Below, piece after piece: positions 17,878 through 62,897 of a stretch of DNA of 64,000 bases (its first letter is position 1; every line of letters begins with the position of its first letter). The stretch comes from a phage. The stretch lies in the sequence record PZ445442.1; one strand, given 5' to 3'. The translations under genes were made by a program, and so were the position numbers. Below the pieces are notes generated by a model. It saw only the letters and a list, made by a program, of their open reading frames with translations, ran no database searches and was not told where the DNA came from.

Positions 17878-17895
17878 TTTTTTAACTGAATTATC

Positions 17896-17922
17896 AAGGG
17901 GCTTAGGCCCCTTTCTTTTTGT
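17896..17922 (+). terminator. intrinsic terminator closing the + strand block (AAGGGGC-ttag-GCCCCTT + TCTTTTTGT)
   Basis: 7-bp perfect stem plus U-run 20 nt after stop. Confidence 0.85.
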
Positions 17923-18409
17923 CTGCTCTTCCCCCTACCATAAACGGCCCTACCTGGCAAGTGGAATAATTGACGAGCCATCAATCCCACACACTGTACA
18001 AACATACATATAAAATAACTATTGCATAATTTTTCATTGTGTGGTAGCAGGGCCATTTTTACACATTTTTCCTTCCAAAATTGCACGTAATGCAGCATTT
18101 GCACAAAATTTAACCTGATGCATATATTCAATAGCTTGTCAACAACTAAAAATCTTTATAAGTCATACACTTACATAACTACAAAAGCGTTTTCTACGTG
18201 AAAAATCGAGTATAACTATAGCCGCCAGATCTCAGAATTTACGTACGCTCGCCATTCTATAGCCTGCTAAGCATTTATTCCAACCATAGAATAACGGAAT
18301 AGTCAATACCTGCATAAAATAATTATTCGTGTAAACTGCATAACATAAATCGGCCCAGGTGTCAACATTTTTCGTAAACAGTCTGGAATTGTCACGTTAG
18401 GTTACCATA

Positions 18410-18760
18410 AGCAGAGAAATCTTTAGTCGTCTAATGTTTACTGTACGTTACTATATTAACTGAAATCATTAGATGACTAATAGAAAGATAAGAAATAATT
18501 AACAATACAATTATTTTATCTGTAACAATAAGGCAACTATGCAAACGAATGGCATGGCGCGACGGAGTCGCGACATAATATAAAAGCAGTAACCATCACC
18601 CCCGTGATAGTTTGTCTGCAAACTATTAATCAGATCATAGTTGCCTTGTATTTAGTTAATCATGACATAACAAGCAAGGCAACTATAGATCTTCTAATAG
18701 TTGCCCTGCTTTTATATTATGTCATAAATTATTAACATGCAAACGAATGGCATGGCTTAT
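18410..18760. repeat. non-coding repeat cluster (direct repeat ATGCAAACGAATGGCATGGC at 18538 and 18728; inverted GACATAATATAAAAGCAG/CTGCTTTTATATTATGTC; AAGGCAACTAT motifs in both orientations; palindrome ATAGTTTG-TCTG-CAAACTAT)
   Basis: Direct reading; no credible ORF. Confidence 0.55.
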
Positions 18761-19329
18761 AATTTTTGAGAAAATAGTCTATACGTGAACAGTAAGGCAT
18801 GCAATAGTAACAATTGTTATTGTATCCAGTGTGTTGAGTATGCCCAGTATGTCACCATTGTGTCCAGTATGTCAGACAAGTTTTCCTCCTCTTTGTCAAG
18901 TGCTGCATGAAAAATTTACAAACTGGTATGGTAGCATTTTTGCGGCCCTGTTTACATTCAGTAATGTATGTATAATCCTTGTTGTGTGGGCGTTTAGACG
19001 TCTAGACGGTTGGAAGTCTACAGGTCAATATCTAATCTATTGGCTGCTAACTATATCCCACACAAATAGTAAGAAATATGATTGTTATATGCGTAAACTG
19101 TAACTCATGTTATCAATCCCTGTATGTATCACCAGTGGTGCGCATAATGGGTATTATGTTAAATTGCCCGTAATGATAACTATTCTCACAATGATAGGTA
19201 TTCTCATTCACCCCAACAAAATAGGTTGCAAATGTTGTGCCACTGTGTGAACGGCCTCACCTATTAATTTGCCTCACTGCCTCGATATTTGAGAATTATT
19301 ATAAAAATGAGAAGTATTCCCATTCCGTC

Positions 19330-19630
19330 CGCCTGGCAGCACTCCAGTCGCTACGGCTCCTGACAGGGCAGCACTCCTGTAGGTCAGGTCAAAATCGGGG
19401 TAGAACTGGACCTGTTCAGATATTTCTGGCTGACTCTTCAGGTCTGTGTGGGAAAAGCCAACCTCTCCGGCGGGGCAGGGGAGGTAAATTAAAAAATTTA
19501 CGTGGTGTATGAAGAGCCCTTCAGGTAAGGCATGTATTATAGGATGAAACCCTCTTCAGGCATGATATTTGTGGGTGTGATATTTGCTGGAAAGCCAGAT
19601 ATGACGGGACTCCCGGCGGGGCAGGGGTAG
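19330..19630. repeat. short GC-rich direct repeats (GGCAGCACTCC x2; C(T)CCGGCGGGGCAGGGG at 19457 and 19609)
   Basis: Direct reading. Confidence 0.45.
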
Positions 19631-20323
19631 TACAGACGGGGAAATATGGGGATGTAGTTGGGGAAATTGATCAGGCAGGTGGGGTATAGGATATGTTACA
19701 AGTATGTTAAATATGGAGGTTGAATATCTGTAGGATTTGTGTGTAAAATCAAAGACTTAAGTGGTGTTGTGGTATTTTCTATAAATAATTCAAGTTTAAT
19801 AGGTAATATTTGCCTCTATCCACTTTGTGTGGTAAACAGATTCAGATGAGATTAGTTTACAAGTGTATACATAATATACAAATTAAAGATACAGGAAACC
19901 CCCCTCCCCCTTCGGCTACCATTCACCTTTTCCTCTGACTGGTACTTAAACACTTATTCAGACTCTTCAGGTTATCACCCATATATCATATGGCAGTGAC
20001 TGGTGTCCTCCGGCCCCTCTTTCGTCACCCGTCCGCTTCGCCATGCTAATGCCATAGCCAAAGGTTCGGTTGTTCACCCTGTTCACTCAGGTGTATCTCC
20101 ATACCCCTTCAAACCGAAGAGAACAGAAAACCCGAATTACTCGGTAAAAGAAAAGAGAAGAACTTAATTTTATCAGGATAGGCAAGAATGTCAAGGCATG
20201 ACTGCTCACTAAACAAGCAAACAGTCATGTGTGGGAGGTAAGTGATTGTGGTGGTGGGAAATTTAGTTGAAAGATGTGTTATAGGTGCGCTTCCAGCACT
20301 TTAGCCGGGCAGCTAATTGTGTG

Positions 20324-20539
20324 TCAGTCCAGCGGTTCATCCTCTACTTCACTGAAATCAATGTTCATGGTCTCTTCCCAACCATCGATCTCAGCACAAG
20401 AGTGGAGTTCTTTAGGGTTTACTCCCAAAGCCTCAGCAACAGAGTCTATATTTAACACCTCTGGCAGGTATGATTCATCGAATTCAAGGTAAATCAGGCC
20501 ACGAGTGTTGTCAGCTCCACCAAATATTTCTATCTTCAT
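20324..20539 (-). CDS. hypothetical small acidic protein
   Basis: 71-aa ORF, last gene of - strand block. Confidence 0.45.
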   Translation of the reverse strand: MKIEIFGGADNTRGLIYLEFDESYLPEVLNIDSVAEALGVNPKELHSCAEIDGWEETMNIDFSEVEDEPLD

Positions 20540-59198: not shown

Positions 59199-59549
59199 AT
59201 GAAAGATGGGGATAAGCTGCTATATCTTAAAGTCCCCCTTGAAATACTATCTATGTCAAAAGTTTTGAATGACACAACTGGGGAGGTTGTTGTTCTTGAC
59301 TTGTATGACAAGATCGTATACTGCTACCTGCACAACTGGTATAAGCTTGGAGGAAATTCACGCTTCACACCAAGCACAAGGAAAATTGCAGCAGATGTTG
59401 GGATAAAGAAAACAAAAGCAGCAGCGTGCGTTAAAACTTTAGAATGTGCAGGAGTGGTTGAAACATCCACACAAGGGAGAGGTAAAAGATGCACATTTTC
59501 CAAAGTTTTGCCACCAGAAGAAGTTATTCGGATGTCAACAACTGGTTAG
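59199..59549 (+). CDS. putative DNA-binding protein (winged-helix/HTH-like)
   Basis: 116-aa ORF, AAGGAGAATCAGGAG RBS; followed by iteron array. Confidence 0.4.
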   Translation: MKDGDKLLYLKVPLEILSMSKVLNDTTGEVVVLDLYDKIVYCYLHNWYKLGGNSRFTPSTRKIAADVGIKKTKAAACVKTLECAGVVETSTQGRGKRCTFSKVLPPEEVIRMSTTG

Positions 59550-59624
59550 ACCAGTAAAAACTTAAATATCTGTACTATAAGGATTCGTATGTTTTATGTT
59601 CGCCATGGAACGGATACTATTAAC

Positions 59625-59705
59625 TGTCCGTGATACGGACACTACTGTCCGTCACGCGGACACATCTGCCCGTAATACGGACACTAACTGTCCGTGATAC
59701 GGACA
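59625..59705. repeat. four direct copies (about 22-bp phasing) of palindromic site GTCCGTGATACGGACAC (GTCCGT-N3-ACGGAC), then AT-rich tract
   Basis: Copies at 59625, 59645, 59667, 59689. Confidence 0.8.
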
Positions 59706-60209
59706 CATAAAGAATATAACTAAAATAACTAAATAATAAAAAATAAAAGATCTAGTACTTATGGTACTAAGTACATATACTTAACTTATGTAGAATATAC
59801 TAGATCCCAAGTACCATGTTTTAAATTTATTACTTACTATGGGCAGTGTCGGCCCTTCATTGGCACTCGCCTACGAGGGGCGAGATGCCGGGCCTCCTTG
59901 GTGCACACAATAACAGAAGTGCATACATGCAGGTCTGTTAACATGTGTGGGAGCGAAGCTATAGCGCAGGCCAAAGGCCGAGCAATGATGTGGACCACCG
60001 ACGAAAGCTTGCCAGCGCCGTAAGGAGTCGGTTGAGAGTCTCCCGCGCGAGCTTGGATGAAGTTTATGTGTGGAAACTGACAAGAAGGCCCCTAAATCGC
60101 TCCACAGCTATATAAACTATACCAGGTAATGCAATCGCACCAGTTTGATAGAAAAGCTCGTTACAAAGCGATACAGTGAGTTTTTCTATAACTTGAAGAG
60201 GAGGCAGCT

Positions 60210-60788
60210 ATGGGTTCACGCAAAGATGACCGTGAAAAGATTGCAAAACGTTATCAGAATGAAGAACAGATGGAGAAAACTTTCAAGTGGAAGCCCGGTT
60301 TCCAGCGTAATCATTCTAACGCCCGTGATCGTAAGCATCCGGATAAGTGGCTAACACCGCCAAATGATGTCATGCAGGTTGGGGATGAGAAGGAGATGTC
60401 GCCTGGAAAAGATGGCAACTACATTCGCACTAAGGACGCTGGTCCAAAGGATGACAGCTATCTTGTAGATAAGGTTCTTGATGGTATCAATGTAGATGTT
60501 GACACTGCACGAAACCTTTTTCTTGGGTGGTATCGCACAGGTTTTTTCGACATCAAGGCTATTCGTCGTGTTTGTGATATTAAAAAGTCTGCATATGATG
60601 ACGACTCGTTACATCGCACCCTGAGACAATATTCAGAAAGATATGGTCATCCGGTTATCACTCTTGACGATGTTAACGAAGTGATGTATCATGCAGAGGT
60701 TGTTGCAGGAAGATTTGGTGATGCATATCTTGATATCCTTTCTGCAAAGGATGAGGTAATGTTAAATAAGATTTACTATGAACGCTGA
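60210..60788 (+). CDS. hypothetical protein
   Basis: 192-aa ORF with GAGGAGG RBS. Confidence 0.55.
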   Translation: MGSRKDDREKIAKRYQNEEQMEKTFKWKPGFQRNHSNARDRKHPDKWLTPPNDVMQVGDEKEMSPGKDGNYIRTKDAGPKDDSYLVDKVLDGINVDVDTARNLFLGWYRTGFFDIKAIRRVCDIKKSAYDDDSLHRTLRQYSERYGHPVITLDDVNEVMYHAEVVAGRFGDAYLDILSAKDEVMLNKIYYER

Positions 60789-61306: not shown

Positions 61307-61593
61307 GGTTGTTTTCGTGTATCATGATGAATATCCAATTTAAAGATGAATTTGATGGCTTTATCTCCGGATGCTTTGAAACAGGGTTCGGAGAAGGCTG
61401 AGTTCCCCTTAGAGGGCTTGATAGTGCACCACACTTAAAATGGTAGGGGCAGCCAGCACATGACGATGTGACCCCAGCCAACCTGTAATAAGGTCGAGCC
61501 AAAGTGCGGTAATGGGCTCTGGTAACCCACTTGTTGGGTCTTGCTGGTCCAGGACGCTGGACAAGTCGCAGGGAATACCACCCTGCGGCGAAC

Positions 61594-61622
61594 TTGACAA
61601 TCAGTATTTGCTATGATAAAAT
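61594..61622 (+). promoter_or_regulatory. sigma70-like promoter TTGACA-N17-TAAAAT with downstream palindrome TATCACGTGATA
   Basis: Read directly; palindrome 61627-61638 could be an operator. Confidence 0.55.
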
Positions 61623-61650: not shown

Positions 61651-61989
61651 ATGGCGGATACAACTAAAAAGCGTCGCCGTAGAGGCAGACCTCTGAAAGA
61701 GGAGTCCAACGCCATTCAGCTAGAGAAGAACATCCTTGATATGAAGGAATCTTTTATAGCGATGGTTCCAGAAGCTCACAAAGTTTTAAGAGAGCTGATG
61801 TTGGACCCGAAAACCAAACAAAATATTCGTCAAAGCATTGCAGAGTATGTTCTTGATAAGGCAGACCGAATGCAGGAAGAATATGATGAGATGTTTGGTG
61901 AAGAGGAAGAGGTGGTAGTAGAAGAGGCTGAAAAACCAGCACCTTTTATGCCATTTACCACAGAAATACAACCTGTTAGCAATAGCTAA
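61651..61989 (+). CDS. hypothetical basic/acidic protein with AT-hook-like KKRRRRGRP N-terminus
   Basis: ATG 61651 after GGAGGAA. Confidence 0.5.
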   Translation: MADTTKKRRRRGRPLKEESNAIQLEKNILDMKESFIAMVPEAHKVLRELMLDPKTKQNIRQSIAEYVLDKADRMQEEYDEMFGEEEEVVVEEAEKPAPFMPFTTEIQPVSNS

Positions 61990-62027: not shown

Positions 62028-62086
62028 TGTAAACATGGTCTCCCACCTTTTCTGGCGGCTAAGGTGTAAAAGAAAGCCACCCAGTG

Positions 62087-62161
62087 CCCTGTTAGCTTAG
62101 TGGATAAAGCAGCGGCCTTCTAAGCCGTTGACACTGGTTCGAGTCCAGTACGGGGTGCCAA
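62087..62161 (+). tRNA. tRNA-Arg (anticodon UCU)
   Basis: Manual cloverleaf: acceptor GCCCTGT/ACGGGGT, D-arm GCTT/AAGC, anticodon loop CTTCTAA, T-arm ACTGG-TTCGAGT-CCAGT, CCA encoded. Confidence 0.8.
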
Positions 62162-62165
62162 ATTG

Positions 62166-62252
62166 GGGAGTTATCCCGTAGGGGTAGCGGTGTAGACTGT
62201 AAATCTATTGTCATTGCGACTCGGGTGGTTCGACTCCACCACTCCCCACCAA
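62166..62252 (+). tRNA. tRNA-Tyr (anticodon GUA), type II with long variable arm
   Basis: Acceptor GGGGAGT/ACTCCCC, anticodon stem GTAGA/TCTAT, loop CTGTAAA, variable arm hairpin, T-arm GGTGG-TTCGACT-CCACC, CCA encoded. Confidence 0.75.
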
Positions 62253-62366
62253 ATTTATATTTTTAAATGCATAAATCATACAGATAATGACATTGATATT
62301 TATCGTCGTTTATACTAGTCACTAACTGCTCGAAAATCAGTGTCATTATCAGTGTAATTTATAAAG

Positions 62367-62457
62367 GAGGGTAGGGAGCAATGGTGCTCAAGCGGTCTTG
62401 AAAACCGTCCCGTTGAGGATGACTCGATGATGGTTCGATTCCATTACTCTCCGCCAC
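62367..62457 (+). tRNA. tRNA-Ser (anticodon UGA), type II
   Basis: Acceptor GGAGGGT/ACTCTCC, anticodon stem GCGGT/ACCGT, loop CTTGAAA, long variable arm, T-arm GATGG-TTCGATT-CCATT, CCA encoded. Confidence 0.7.
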
Positions 62458-62554
62458 ATTGTTGACCTTGTAATTAAGCGAAAGCCGGAAGCAGAACCGG
62501 ATTATCAAATGTTACAGTCGTCATCGCCGACTAGCCACATGGTCAACATATTGC

Positions 62555-62653
62555 GCTAGGTAAGCCCTTTGGCAAGGGCGAGGATTTTTAATCCTGAAAA
62601 TAGACGAGGTAGTCGTTGAATACATAGGTGGTTCGATTCCATCACCTAGCACC
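62555..62653 (+). tRNA. atypical tRNA-like element (possible tRNA-Lys UUU with about 30-nt insertion in variable region; may be non-functional)
   Basis: Acceptor GCTAGGT/ACCTAGC 7/7, D-arm GCCC-TTTGGCAA-GGGC, T-arm GGTGG-TTCGATT-CCATC, but the anticodon arm is irregular and the element is about 97 nt. Confidence 0.4.
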
Positions 62654-62657
62654 TTTT

Positions 62658-62733
62658 GCTGATGTAGCACAATTGGCAGTGCAATTGATTTGTAATCAAT
62701 AGGTTGCAGGTTCAAGTCCTGCCATCAGCACCA
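62658..62733 (+). tRNA. tRNA-Thr (anticodon UGU)
   Basis: Acceptor GCTGATG/CATCAGC, D-arm GCAC/GTGC, anticodon stem ATTGA/TCAAT, loop TTTGTAA, T-arm GCAGG-TTCAAGT-CCTGC, CCA. Confidence 0.8.
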
Positions 62734-62734
62734 T

Positions 62735-62809
62735 GGCCCTGTAGCTGGAAGGTTCAAGCAAGCGACTCATAATCGCCAGACGGTGGTTCAATTCCACCCA
62801 GGGCCACCA
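62735..62809 (+). tRNA. tRNA-Met or tRNA-Ile2 (anticodon CAU)
   Basis: Acceptor GGCCCTG/CAGGGCC, anticodon loop CTCATAA, T-arm GGTGG-TTCAATT-CCACC, CCA. Confidence 0.75.
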
Positions 62810-62820
62810 AATAATAAATA

Positions 62821-62897
62821 CTCCGCGTAGCTCAGCTTGGTAGAGCGCCTGATTTGGGATCAGGAGGTCGAGTGTTCGAATCACTCCGTGGAGACCA
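62821..62897 (+). tRNA. tRNA-Pro (anticodon UGG)
   Basis: Acceptor CTCCGCG/CGTGGAG (C1-G72), D-arm GCTC/GAGC, anticodon stem CCTGA/TCAGG, loop TTTGGGA, T-arm GAGTG-TTCGAAT-CACTC, CCA. Confidence 0.8.

What the first reader, a model, noticed from the sequence alone, without database searches (positions are those of the whole stretch)
59830..60110. GC-rich structured non-coding segment upstream of gene 60210
About 280 bp with much higher GC than its surroundings, nested inverted repeats (e.g. CTCGCC-tacgag-GGCGAG) and no credible ORF (the 70-aa antisense ORF lacks an RBS). Possible stable RNA or structured 5' UTR.
Basis: seen in the sequence. Interest (0 to 1): 0.4.

Follow-up and report, generated by a model that had tools for sequence, protein, structure and literature searches.

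The report
Conserved folded non-coding element beside phage origin
The GC-rich stretch is a real, non-coding element, conserved in rV5-like E. coli phages and copied by small satellite-like plasmids, that folds as a single strand and most likely serves as a docking site for phage replication machinery (or as a structured RNA).

Summary
The window is a Vequintavirus (rV5-like) genome. In detail: 59846-60050 has GC 0.52 against 0.36-0.42 in the flanks, contains nested hairpins and has no conserved ORF. It matches no Rfam family.

Base pairing is selected on the + strand. One 6-bp helix has three fully complementary versions in three lineages, with 4 of 6 pairs changed on both sides. It encloses an invariant 24-nt loop whose GNRA tetraloop varies only at N. 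A second hairpin has two compensatory pairs.

The same core, in one copy, occurs in three phage lineages and in 13-kb circular E. coli plasmids. These plasmids carry homologues of rV5 tail and neck proteins but no terminase, so they look like satellites. In every case the element follows four or five dyad-symmetric repeats and an AT/GATC-rich stretch. The repeats differ between lineages. A Rep-like gene lies nearby in two phage lineages and the one plasmid scanned. This resembles a lambda-type origin.

It is not an obligatory 5' UTR of gene 60210.

- **Best reading (about 0.4):** an origin-linked priming or loading signal that acts in single-stranded form.
- **Main rival (about 0.35):** a structured regulatory or stable RNA.
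- **Packaging site:** about 0.1.

The function is untested.

The parts
59199..59549 (+). 116-aa winged-helix protein: Rep/O-like initiator or regulator, cognate to the repeats that follow
   Evidence: PHROG 12838 'replication initiation protein' at E = 5e-80, with weaker hits to four other replication-initiator or HTH PHROGs. Pfam HTH_36 and DUF6945 score just below their cut-offs. Annotated as a transcriptional regulator or replication initiation protein in GenBank relatives. The L004/L021 clade has a different 143-aa Rep-like protein paired with different repeats.
59621..59706 (.). Four 22-nt repeats, each with internal dyad symmetry (TGTCCGTnnnACGGACA), spaced 21, 21 and 22 bp (lambda-iteron-like)
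   Evidence: Repeat family D1 and inverted repeats I1-I5. Different palindromic repeats replace them in L004/L021, in L055 and in each plasmid, while the downstream element is kept.
59707..59845 (.). AT-rich spacer with a long AT-rich palindrome (about 59749-59807) and two GATC sites
   Evidence: GC 0.36. Predicted hairpin at alignment columns 38-96. The equivalent stretch in L055 carries six GATC sites, counted by eye.
59851..59894 (+). 5' nested hairpin: outer stem 59851-59855/59890-59894, inner stem 59862-59872/59878-59889
   Evidence: 16 pairs, 99% paired in 7 distinct sequences. Two pairs change on both sides between phage and plasmid L027 (G-C to U-A twice); sliding the partners drops pairing to 33-51%. 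Four other plasmids have an unrelated 10-bp hairpin at this position.
59904..59949 (+). Variable hairpin: CACACA/UGUGUG outer stem with an inner extension
   Evidence: MFE fold. rV5 and Pr121LW carry an 18-nt deletion that removes the 5' arm of the inner extension; the remaining sequence can form an 8-bp stem, CACACATG/CATGTGTG (read from the alignment). The outer stem cannot form in L004/L021, so this part is not universal.
59944..59951 (+). TGTGTGGG box
   Evidence: One copy here. There are 3 in the L027 element and 4 (3 full octamers plus one TGTGTGG 7-mer) in the L055 element, always on the folded strand. The octamer is over-represented: 14 in the window against 2.05 expected, and 10 in the 13.7-kb plasmid against 0.36 expected.
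59952..59987 (+). Middle hairpin region (contains GCGAAGC and GGCC-AAA-GGCC); lineage-specific
   Evidence: Conserved among the phages. In the plasmids a different hairpin set replaces it, including small stems with UUCG-type and triloop loops. Pairing here was not tested by covariation.
59988..60051 (+). Universal core: ATGTGG, helix Pa (59997-60002/60027-60032), invariant 24-nt loop (60003-60026) with a CC-GNAA-GG mini-hairpin (tetraloop 60020-60023), then GAGAGnCUCCCGCGCG
   Evidence: Covariance model R1 finds exactly one copy per genome: 90-97 bits in phages and plasmids, and 20.6 bits (rough E about 0.005) in the distant phage L055. In Pa, 4 of 6 pairs change on both sides, with an A-U/G-U/G-C series. 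All 128 cells are paired, 0 of 500 shuffles reach the observed score, and slid controls give 13-53% pairing. The tetraloop reads GUAA, GGAA or GUGA.
60052..60110 (+). Looser 3' tail with TGTGTGG (60067-60073) and CCCTAAATCG (60090-60099)
   Evidence: Partly conserved. CTAAAT-type motifs recur downstream of the core in the plasmids and in L055. The extended pattern occurs only once in the window.
60148..60189 (+). Perfect 13-bp hairpin (AUAGAAAAGCUCG / UGAGUUUUUCUAU) just before the RBS of gene 60210
   Evidence: 13 pairs that are nearly invariant: 10 never vary, 2 vary on one side only, and one cell is broken, across 16 phages. Not present in the plasmids. Its relation to the element is unknown; it may belong to the downstream gene's own control region.
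60210..60788 (+). 192-aa protein of unknown function (PHROG 12226), first gene downstream
   Evidence: It is not an obligatory partner of the element.

Best explanation
The segment is the conserved module of a lambda-type, origin-like region, and it works in single-stranded, folded form.

**Shown**
- It is non-coding.
- Its + strand forms hairpins that selection maintains.
- Its core loop sequence is invariant.
- It is present once per genome in three Vequintavirus-like phage lineages and in a family of 13-kb satellite-like plasmids.
- It always lies just downstream of four or five dyad-symmetric repeats and an AT/GATC-rich stretch. The repeats differ between lineages. A Rep-like gene lies nearby in two phage lineages and in the one plasmid scanned.

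**Inferred**
- The lineage-specific initiator binds its repeats and opens the AT-rich DNA.
- The + strand of the GC-rich segment is the lagging-strand template of the fork moving away from the repeats. A 5'->3' T7-gp4-like primase-helicase would ride on this strand.
- That strand then folds and displays the invariant loop and the TGTGTGGG box or boxes.
- This serves as a priming or helicase-loading signal for the phage replisome, by analogy with IncQ ssiA/ssiB, the R1 G-site and G4-type ssi signals.
- A close variant is that the same fold acts in a transcript crossing the origin, or in the non-template strand it displaces, as a primer or R-loop origin of the ColE1, T7 or T4 kind.
- The plasmids keep the phage's core because they need phage-encoded machinery to act on their own DNA during infection.
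For: **Base pairing and strand**
- Compensatory changes and 100% pairing in helix Pa across 16 distinct sequences; two compensatory pairs in the 5' hairpin.
- G-U intermediates and the GNRA orientation place the fold on the + strand.

**Context**
- Four 22-nt dyad-symmetric repeats at 21-22-bp spacing, followed by AT-rich DNA.
- The neighbouring 116-aa protein, the 143-aa protein of L004 and the plasmid's 303-aa protein all hit PHROG replication-initiator families; the plasmid protein also hits an O-like family.
- The order repeats, then AT/GATC-rich stretch, then boxes and hairpins, then core recurs with about seven different repeat sequences: window, L004/L021, L055 and four plasmid types.
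- The downstream genes differ between these contexts. TTGACA-type promoter-like sequences, read by eye, lie after the element in the plasmids and in L055.

**Link to the plasmids**
- Across the whole phage genome, the element is the only non-coding similarity to the plasmid.
- The plasmid encodes homologues of rV5-type tail tube initiator (54% identity), neck protein (48%) and tape measure protein (38%), but no terminase or portal.

**Octamer**
- TGTGTGGG is enriched in both phage and plasmid. On the plasmid, and at most phage sites, it points away from this locus.
- The phage encodes a primase/helicase and a DNA polymerase.
Against: - No experiment or read data shows that replication starts here.
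- The repeats could be operators of a repressor rather than iterons. The Rep-like assignments rest on weak profile hits and on a PHROG label.
- Several stems are only 4-6 bp long. That is more typical of RNA than of SSB-coated single-stranded DNA.
- A second GC-rich block 1.4 kb downstream (61385-61595) also shows compensatory changes but has no repeats beside it. This favours the view that GC-rich blocks in this operon are RNAs.
- The element lies on the same strand as its flanking genes, with no terminator between them, so it is probably transcribed anyway.
- The octamer polarity model was fitted after the fact to 22 sites.
- A second repeat-rich, gene-free 2.4-kb region at 17.9-20.4 kb is a competing candidate for the origin.
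Confidence: 0.4

Rival explanations
1. A structured RNA acting on gene expression, or a stable RNA. The element is transcribed with the long + strand unit that runs from the PNK gene through the tRNA cluster into the late genes. It would act in one of three ways:
- as a cis leader bound by a phage protein (antitermination, processing or stabilisation, in the manner of nut or put);
- as a processed stable RNA, like the non-tRNA stable RNAs of the T4 tRNA cluster;
- as a trans-acting RNA whose UGUGUGGG box pairs with CCCACACA in the 5' leaders of early mRNAs.

The plasmids would copy it to tap the helper's regulator.
For: - Covariation with G-U intermediates, and a GNRA loop that varies only at N.
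- The plasmid-specific insertions are self-contained small hairpins.
- The rV5 deletion removes the 5' arm of the inner extension of a hairpin, and the remaining sequence can still form an 8-bp stem.
- The element has the same orientation as its flanking genes, with no terminator between them.
- Its GC content matches that of the tRNA genes downstream.
- A second GC-rich block at 61385-61595 is 92% conserved and has 2 compensatory pairs.
- rV5 genes 27-81 were proposed to form one transcription unit that includes this locus and the late genes (PMC3606486).
- CCCACACA lies 20-30 nt upstream of two start codons in the early region.
Against: - No Rfam, tRNA or tmRNA match.
- No sigma-70 promoter or terminator brackets the element.
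- The downstream genes differ between lineages, and promoter-like sequences lie after the element in the plasmids and L055.
- This reading does not explain the constant position next to the repeat arrays, nor the occurrence of the octamer on both strands and inside coding regions.
- No transcript data are available.
Confidence: 0.35
2. A packaging (pac) recognition site of the headful-packaging Vequintavirus terminase. Satellite plasmids that lack a terminase would have copied it so that the helper packages them, as P4 carries the P2 cos site.
For: - The plasmids have no terminase or portal. The element is the only non-coding sequence they share with the whole phage genome.
- Vequintaviruses are reported as circularly permuted with headful packaging (PMC8407724, PMC13211470).
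- The element lies on the same strand as the large terminase gene and about 4.2 kb upstream of it, at the head of the late block.
- No small terminase is annotated. A conserved 112-aa protein with a basic N-terminus lies between them and has a weak small-terminase hit (E = 0.06).
- Short boxes are repeated at variable spacing.
Against: - The stem arms change while staying complementary, and the loop between them is invariant. This is the signature of a folded single strand, not of a double-stranded protein-binding site.
- The pac sites I know of (recalled, not checked here) are not known to need hairpins.
- In L055 the element points away from the terminase operon.
- The record start points of deposited genomes give no support.
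Confidence: 0.1
3. A short protein-coding gene, for example rV5 ORF78 (= bas49_0221) or the antisense 70-aa ORF.
For: Gene callers annotated small ORFs here in some records. ORF78 is open in 12 of 16 phages.
Against: - Stops or frameshifts occur in 4 to 14 of 16 phages, depending on the ORF.
- Start codons are not conserved.
- There is no third-position bias in variable columns (15:19:20).
- A 40-nt stretch is invariant, with no wobble variation.
- The plasmid and L055 homologues keep the RNA-like core but not the reading frames.
Confidence: 0.02

Closest known systems
Lambda-type origin (O initiator, four dyad-symmetric iterons, adjacent AT-rich region)
   Same: Four roughly 20-bp repeats, each with internal dyad symmetry and phased about 21 bp apart, followed by AT-rich DNA. 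A winged-helix initiator-like protein is encoded next to them. The plasmid's Rep hits an O-like PHROG.
   Different: The repeats lie outside the initiator gene. The phage protein is only 116 aa and has no obvious helicase-recruiting domain. A 200-nt GC-rich folded element follows the AT-rich part. Origin activity is untested. The description of the lambda origin is from my own knowledge.
Single-strand initiation signals: IncQ RSF1010 ssiA/ssiB, G4-type ssi, the R1 G-site
   Same: Strand-specific hairpin-forming DNA next to an iteron origin, where a dedicated primase starts synthesis after the initiator and helicase open the duplex. The sequence of these signals is conserved independently of the iterons.
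   Different: No sequence similarity was detected, and no models exist to test it. The element is longer (150-330 nt) and modular, with short stems. The primase involved would be a phage gp4-like enzyme. Priming was not tested. The comparison rests on my own knowledge of those systems.
Primer or R-loop origins (ColE1 RNA II; T7 and T4 transcription-dependent origins)
   Same: A structured, G-skewed transcript or displaced strand at an origin; the fold matters and covaries; it lies in the direction of transcription.
   Different: No antisense regulator is evident. No mapped promoter or RNA-DNA switch point is known. Iteron-like repeats are present, which the ColE1 type lacks.
P2/P4 helper-satellite pair sharing the cos site
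   Same: A small, plasmid-capable element encodes capsid- and tail-modifying proteins but no terminase. It shares one short non-coding sequence with a large myovirus.
   Different: The shared sequence here behaves as a folded single strand, not a duplex site. Satellite behaviour of the plasmids is inferred from sequence only.
Cis-acting antitermination RNAs (lambda nut boxB, HK022 put) and phi29 pRNA
   Same: Phage-encoded structured RNAs whose stems covary while their loops are read by a phage protein or machine. They sit at the head of long operons (nut, put) or act in packaging (pRNA).
   Different: No match to any Rfam model, including pRNA. No partner protein has been identified. In the plasmids and L055, promoter-like sequences lie downstream of the element.

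Membership tests
Any described RNA family (Rfam 15, 4227 models, including phi29 pRNA, C4/P4 CI antisense RNA, T-box, RNase P, 6S, SRP, Y-RNA-like, ROOL/GOLLD, HEARO) | Covariance-model score at or near the family threshold | tested here: not met
   At the gathering threshold only tRNAs are found in the window. At E <= 10 on 59500-60300 the best hit is rli43 at 22 bits against a threshold of 100; the other hits are noise. The plasmid versions give zero hits at E <= 1.
tRNA / tmRNA / tRNA-like | Cloverleaf or tmRNA detected by ARAGORN | tested here: not met
   ARAGORN finds 7 tRNAs at 62086-62897 and nothing at 59.8-60.1 kb.
Protein-coding gene | An open frame and start codon conserved among relatives, with variation biased to third codon positions | tested here: not met
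   Frames are broken in 4 to 14 of 16 phages. Start codons are lost. Variable columns split 15:19:20 and similar in every frame.
Structured single-stranded element (RNA or ssDNA) | Base pairs kept through changes on both sides, above shuffled and slid controls | tested here: met
   In helix Pa, 4 of 6 pairs change on both sides, 128 of 128 cells are paired, 0 of 500 shuffles reach the score, and slid controls give 13-53% pairing. The 5' hairpin has 2 double changes and 99% pairing. Caveat: there are few independent lineages (three phage clades and the plasmids), and alignment A8 is fitted to the model.
Cis-regulatory 5' UTR of gene 60210 | Co-occurrence with homologues of the downstream gene | tested here: not met
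   The 50%-identical homologue in L020 has a 60-nt upstream gap and no model hit. The plasmids and L055 carry the element upstream of unrelated genes.
Lambda-type / iteron replication origin (for the whole locus) | Several phased repeats with dyad symmetry next to an AT-rich stretch | tested here: met
   Four 22-nt repeats spaced 21, 21 and 22 bp. The adjacent stretch has GC 0.36. The same layout is seen in L004/L021, L055 and the plasmids.
Lambda-type / iteron replication origin (for the whole locus) | A cognate initiator protein encoded nearby | tested here: inconclusive
   The PHROG replication-initiator hits are strong only to the protein's own family (12838) and weak to others (1e-5 to 5e-3). 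The Pfam HTH hits fall below their cut-offs. A transcriptional repressor would look the same.
Lambda-type / iteron replication origin (for the whole locus) | Replication demonstrably starts there | not testable with these tools
   This needs marker-frequency or 2D-gel data. The rV5 authors could not place the origin from skew analysis (PMC3606486).
ssi / primosome-type priming signal | Strand-specific priming by a primase on the folded ssDNA | not testable with these tools
   Only position, strand and fold are consistent with this. No sequence model of ssi signals was available.
pac / cos packaging site | Virion DNA ends or packaging series start at the site | not testable with these tools
   The literature reports only circular permutation and headful packaging. 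Record start points are arbitrary.
pac / cos packaging site | Recognition as duplex DNA, so that half-sites are conserved | tested here: not met
   The arms of the inverted repeat change at 4 of 6 positions while staying complementary, and the 24 nt between them are invariant among the phages and plasmids.
Independent sRNA gene | Its own sigma-70 promoter and intrinsic terminator | tested here: not met
   No promoter-like or terminator-like site in 59400-60400 on either strand. The scan is simple and does not cover non-sigma-70 promoters.

The most novel reading that the evidence does not exclude
The element and the polar TGTGTGGG octamer together form a helper-specific 'address label', read either by the Vequintavirus replisome or, more radically, by an RNA-dependent packaging machine in a phage with no recognisable small terminase. 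An undescribed family of 13-kb plasmid satellites has copied both. These would be the first satellites known for a virulent rV5-like myovirus, and they would exploit a folded nucleic-acid signal rather than a duplex cos or pac site.
Probability: 0.2. Interest if true: 0.85.

Novelty: new variant of a known kind. Interest (0 to 1): 0.66.

Why it matters
- rV5-like phages are widely isolated and are used for biocontrol and therapy of E. coli, including O157. Their replication origin and their packaging signal are still unknown.
- A conserved, covarying element with an invariant loop next to an origin-like repeat array gives a concrete, mutable target for locating that origin or defining a new phage RNA.
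- The element also led to small E. coli plasmids that carry rV5-type tail and neck genes, their own capsid gene and no terminase. If these are satellites, they would be a new helper-satellite system for a 'strictly lytic' phage group. That would matter for phage-therapy outcomes and for horizontal transfer.
- The shared folded element would then be the handle by which the satellite hijacks the helper.

Tried and rejected
**Searches for a known family or signal**
- Rfam at gathering and permissive thresholds, on the phage and two plasmid versions: nothing.
- ARAGORN: nothing in the interval.
- Promoter and terminator scan of 59400-60400: nothing.

**Searches for more copies**
- Exact-pattern scans: viral contigs gave only one IMG/VR contig. 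Metagenome contigs gave four rV5-like contigs and one chance hit. All 19 genome-contig hits were chance matches in GC-rich bacteria with no flank similarity.
- blastn against phages finds only Vequintavirus.
- GAP31-like Seunavirus loci have tRNA genes at the syntenic place and no hit to the model.
- The model finds no second copy in the phage genome or in L020.

**Resemblances seen by eye and dropped**
- Hammerhead core: the UGAUG is not conserved.
- T-box-like GUGGACCGC, RNase P-like GAAAG and SRP-like GGAA loop: no Rfam support.
- DnaA boxes: one-mismatch 9-mers are expected by chance at this length.
- A sigma-70 or extended -10 promoter at TGTTAACAT: not conserved in L004/L021.
- The long-range helix UGUGUGGGAG/CUCCCGCGCG and the alternative UGUGG/CCGCG closure are possible but unsupported: there is no double change and several boxes compete for the same partner.
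- CCCTAAATCG as a genome-wide promoter motif: it occurs only once in the window.

**Other dead ends**
- No extended consensus around the octamer.
- Literature searches found nothing on Vequintavirus satellites, non-coding RNAs or this motif.
- The plasmid's capsid protein has no tblastn match in the phage collection.
- The 192-aa protein has no PDB or Pfam relative.

Full report
**Identity of the window.** The region is 100% identical to Escherichia phage EmilHeitz (Bas49). It is at least 90% identical to 119 Vequintavirus (rV5-like) records. The local gene order is:
- RNA ligase (- strand);
- polynucleotide kinase, phosphoesterase and a 116-aa winged-helix protein (59199-59549);
- about 660 nt without a credible gene;
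- a 192-aa protein (60210), several small genes and a tRNA cluster (62086-62897).

After the record wraps, the order continues with spanins, large terminase, portal and the late genes, all on the + strand.

**The observation.** GC is 0.515-0.53 at 59800-60099, against 0.36 upstream and 0.41-0.455 downstream. The quoted inverted repeat is the inner part of a nested hairpin at 59851-59894. Single-sequence folding is only mildly better than shuffles: z = -1.9 on the + strand and -2.3 on the - strand.

None of the small ORFs is conserved in a 16-phage alignment:
- The antisense 70-aa ORF has internal stops in 12 of 16 phages.
- The +41-aa ORF keeps its start in 4 of 16.
- ORF78, as annotated in rV5, is broken in 4 of 16.
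- Variable columns are flat across codon positions.

A 40-nt stretch, CCGACGAAAGCTTGCCAGCGCCGnAAGGAGTCGGTTGAGAG, is invariant in all 16 phages. This includes a contig whose 192-aa protein is only 82% identical. The conserved block is 59846-60050, with a looser tail to about 60100.

**Not a known family.** Rfam 15 gives nothing at gathering or permissive thresholds, for the phage or for the plasmid versions. ARAGORN gives nothing here. No sigma-70 promoter or intrinsic terminator was found in 59400-60400.

**Relatives outside the phage genus.** A blastn search of complete E. coli genomes found diverged copies, about 85% identical in two pieces. They lie in the large non-coding region of circular 13.2-13.7-kb 'plasmids', plus a 39.6-kb record with three copies.

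One plasmid, NZ_CP020521, encodes:
- a major capsid protein;
- a tape measure protein;
- a 'baseplate' protein and a neck/tail-completion protein;
- a Rep/O-like 303-aa protein;
- HTH proteins, but no terminase and no portal.

Compared with the whole EmilHeitz genome, three of its proteins are homologous to rV5-type proteins: tail tube initiator (54% identity), bas49_0011 neck protein (48%) and tape measure protein (38%). The only non-coding similarity is this element. Its capsid protein has no match in the phage collection. I read these plasmids as satellite-like parasites of rV5-like phages. This is an inference from sequence. I found no paper describing them.

**Base pairing is under selection.** Between phage and plasmid, the 5' hairpin changes GGCACUCGCC...GGCGAGAUGCC to GUCACUCUCC...GGAGAGAUGAC. 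That makes two double changes in 16 pairs, with 99% of cells paired and slid controls at 33-51%.

The core helix Pa (59997-60002/60027-60032) reads:
- ACCGAC/GUCGGU in the phages, with G-U at the first pair in three of them;
- GCUGCC/GGCAGC in the plasmids.

A covariance model of the 64-nt core finds one copy per genome at 90-97 bits. It also finds a distant copy (20.6 bits, rough E about 0.005) in a 139.9-kb phage contig, L055. There Pa reads GACGGC/GCCGUC.

Over 16 distinct sequences, 4 of 6 Pa pairs change on both sides and 128 of 128 cells are paired. No shuffle out of 500 reaches the covariation score, and slid controls pair at 13-53% (also on an alignment not fitted to the model).

Pa encloses 24 nt that are invariant in the phages and plasmids, apart from the second position of a CC-GNAA-GG mini-hairpin. 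That tetraloop reads GUAA or GGAA, and GUGA in L055. G-U pairs and the loop orientation put the fold on the + strand. Other parts are modular:
- rV5 and Pr121LW lack 18 nt, which removes the 5' arm of the inner extension of a hairpin. The remaining sequence can form an 8-bp stem.
- The plasmids carry extra small hairpins between copies of a TGTGTGGG box.
- Four plasmids replace the 5' hairpin with an unrelated one.

The caveat is that there are few independent lineages.

**Context is constant upstream and variable downstream.** In the window the element follows four 22-nt repeats, each with dyad symmetry, spaced 21, 21 and 22 bp. An AT-rich palindromic stretch with two GATC sites lies between them and the element.
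- The L004/L021 clade has a different Rep-like 143-aa protein and different repeats, but the same element.
- Each plasmid type has its own palindromic repeats and the same core.
- L055 shows, in order: a promoter-like sequence, four different palindromic repeats, an AT-rich stretch with six GATC sites, four boxes with hairpins, the core, a CTAAAT motif, a TTGACA promoter-like sequence and then an unrelated gene. All of these point away from the terminase operon.

The 116-aa protein and the plasmid's 303-aa protein hit PHROG replication-initiator families, and the plasmid protein also hits an O-like family. A 50%-identical homologue of the 192-aa gene has no element upstream. So the element is not tied to gene 60210. 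It is tied to a lambda-like array of dyad-symmetric repeats plus AT-rich DNA.

**The octamer.** TGTGTGGG occurs 14 times in the window against 2.05 expected, and 10 times in the 13.7-kb plasmid against 0.36 expected. No shuffle reaches either count. It has no extended consensus.
- In my crude gene map of the window, 8 of 14 copies are outside called ORFs and 2 more lie in a doubtful ORF inside the gene-free region.
- On the plasmid it points away from the repeat array on both arms.
- On the phage genome, 20 of 22 copies point away from either this locus or the gene-free 2.4-kb region near 96 kb of the record.

This pattern was fitted after the fact. It does not follow gene orientation. It is what strand-specific replication-linked motifs look like, but it remains a lead, not a result.

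**Interpretation.** A duplex protein-binding site does not explain arms that change while staying complementary around an invariant centre. This lowers the packaging-site reading to about 0.1, even though the satellite argument and the position 4.2 kb upstream of the large terminase gene favour it.

Two readings remain.

The first is an origin-linked signal that works in single-stranded form. The folded + strand is the lagging-strand template of the fork leaving the repeats. The phage's gp4-like primase/helicase would travel on that strand. The precedents, from my own knowledge, are IncQ ssiA/ssiB, G4-type ssi signals, the R1 G-site and the primer or R-loop origins of ColE1, T7 and T4. This reading explains three things: the constant position beside variable repeats, the retention by plasmids that have their own initiator, and the boxes.

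The second is a structured RNA, either a leader or a stable RNA. It is supported by:
- the short stems;
- the orientation shared with the flanking genes;
- the absence of a terminator upstream;
- a GC content like that of the tRNA genes;
- a second GC-rich block at 61385-61595, which is 92% conserved and has two compensatory pairs but no repeats beside it.

I put 0.4 on the first and 0.35 on the second. Both may hold if a transcript through the origin is the active species.

**Novelty.** The element belongs to no described family. The kind of thing it is, a covarying cis element at a phage control or origin region, is known. The helper-plasmid sharing and the modular box-hairpin design are new. 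I classify it as a new variant of a known kind, with interest 0.66.

Noticed in passing
window 19137-19164: A near-perfect E. coli dif-like XerCD site, GGTGCGCATAATGGGTATTATGTTAAAT. It differs by 2 substitutions from the dif sequence as I recall it. A 43-nt query around it matches one place per chromosome in 5417 E. coli chromosomes at about 92% identity. This is unexpected in a phage regarded as strictly lytic. It suggests a circular episomal phase or Xer-dependent dimer resolution or integration.
   Followed up: partly
window ~17880-20420: A stretch of about 2.4 kb with no annotated gene, lying between divergent gene blocks; this is probably the 'non-coding' box of the rV5 paper. It holds the dif-like site, iteron-like repeats (AAGGCAACTAT / CAAACGAATGGCATGG at about 18530-18760), convergent promoter-like sites and six TGTGTGGG copies. 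It is a competing candidate for the origin or for a plasmid-maintenance region.
   Followed up: partly
whole window; plasmid L029 (NZ_CP020521.1): The octamer TGTGTGGG is strongly over-represented: 14 against 2.05 expected in the window, 22 in the 140-kb genome, and 10 against 0.36 expected in the 13.7-kb plasmid. Its orientation is polar. It switches at this locus, at the 2.4-kb gene-free region and at the plasmid's repeat array, and it does not follow gene orientation. It could be a primase-site-like, Chi-like or KOPS-like motif. The polarity model was fitted after the fact.
   Followed up: partly
window 61385-61595: A second GC-rich (0.55) non-coding block just upstream of a TTGACA-N17-TAAAAT promoter-like sequence (read by eye) and the 112-aa gene. 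It is 92% identical in the L004/L021 clade. Its first 100 nt are almost invariant, and one hairpin has two compensatory pairs (GUCCAG/CUGGAC to GCUCAG/CUGAGC). No Rfam hit at gathering threshold. It is absent from the plasmids.
   Followed up: partly
L027-L032 (NZ_CP020521.1, NZ_CP043822.1, CP148565.1, NZ_CP035869.1, NZ_CP178698.1): A family of circular, non-mobilizable E. coli plasmids of 13.2-13.7 kb; one 39.6-kb record has three copies of the element. They carry their own capsid gene, homologues of rV5-type tail tube initiator, neck and tape measure proteins, a Rep/O-like gene and plasmid-specific palindromic repeats. They have no terminase or portal. They look like undescribed satellites of rV5-like phages.
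   Followed up: partly
window 60148-60189: A perfect 13-bp hairpin with a 16-nt loop, immediately before the Shine-Dalgarno sequence of gene 60210. It is nearly invariant in 16 phages, including the 82% clade. It may be an RNA processing or stability site or a translational control site.
   Followed up: no
window 61651-61989: A 112-aa protein with an arginine-rich N-terminus (MADTTKKRRRRGRP...) and an acidic C-terminus. It is conserved across Vequintavirinae upstream of the large terminase gene. It has only a weak sequence hit to a small terminase structure (7joq, E = 0.06). It could be the missing small terminase or an N-like RNA-binding factor.
   Followed up: partly
CP057073.1 (PLSDB): A 137.6-kb record deposited as an E. 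coli plasmid carries the rV5-type element and has the size of an rV5-like genome. Together with the dif-like site, this hints that these phages can persist as episomes.
   Followed up: no
window 62555-62653: An unusually long tRNA-like gene of 97-99 nt. ARAGORN reports a 4-base anticodon, the Rfam tRNA score is only 35.5 bits, and EmilHeitz annotates it as tRNA-Lys.
   Followed up: no
GenBank MG0656xx records: Eighteen records named 'Campylobacter phage' are at least 90% identical (the listed ones 97.6-99.4%) to E. coli rV5-like phages at this locus. The host label is probably wrong, or the isolates were propagated on contaminating E. coli.
   Followed up: no
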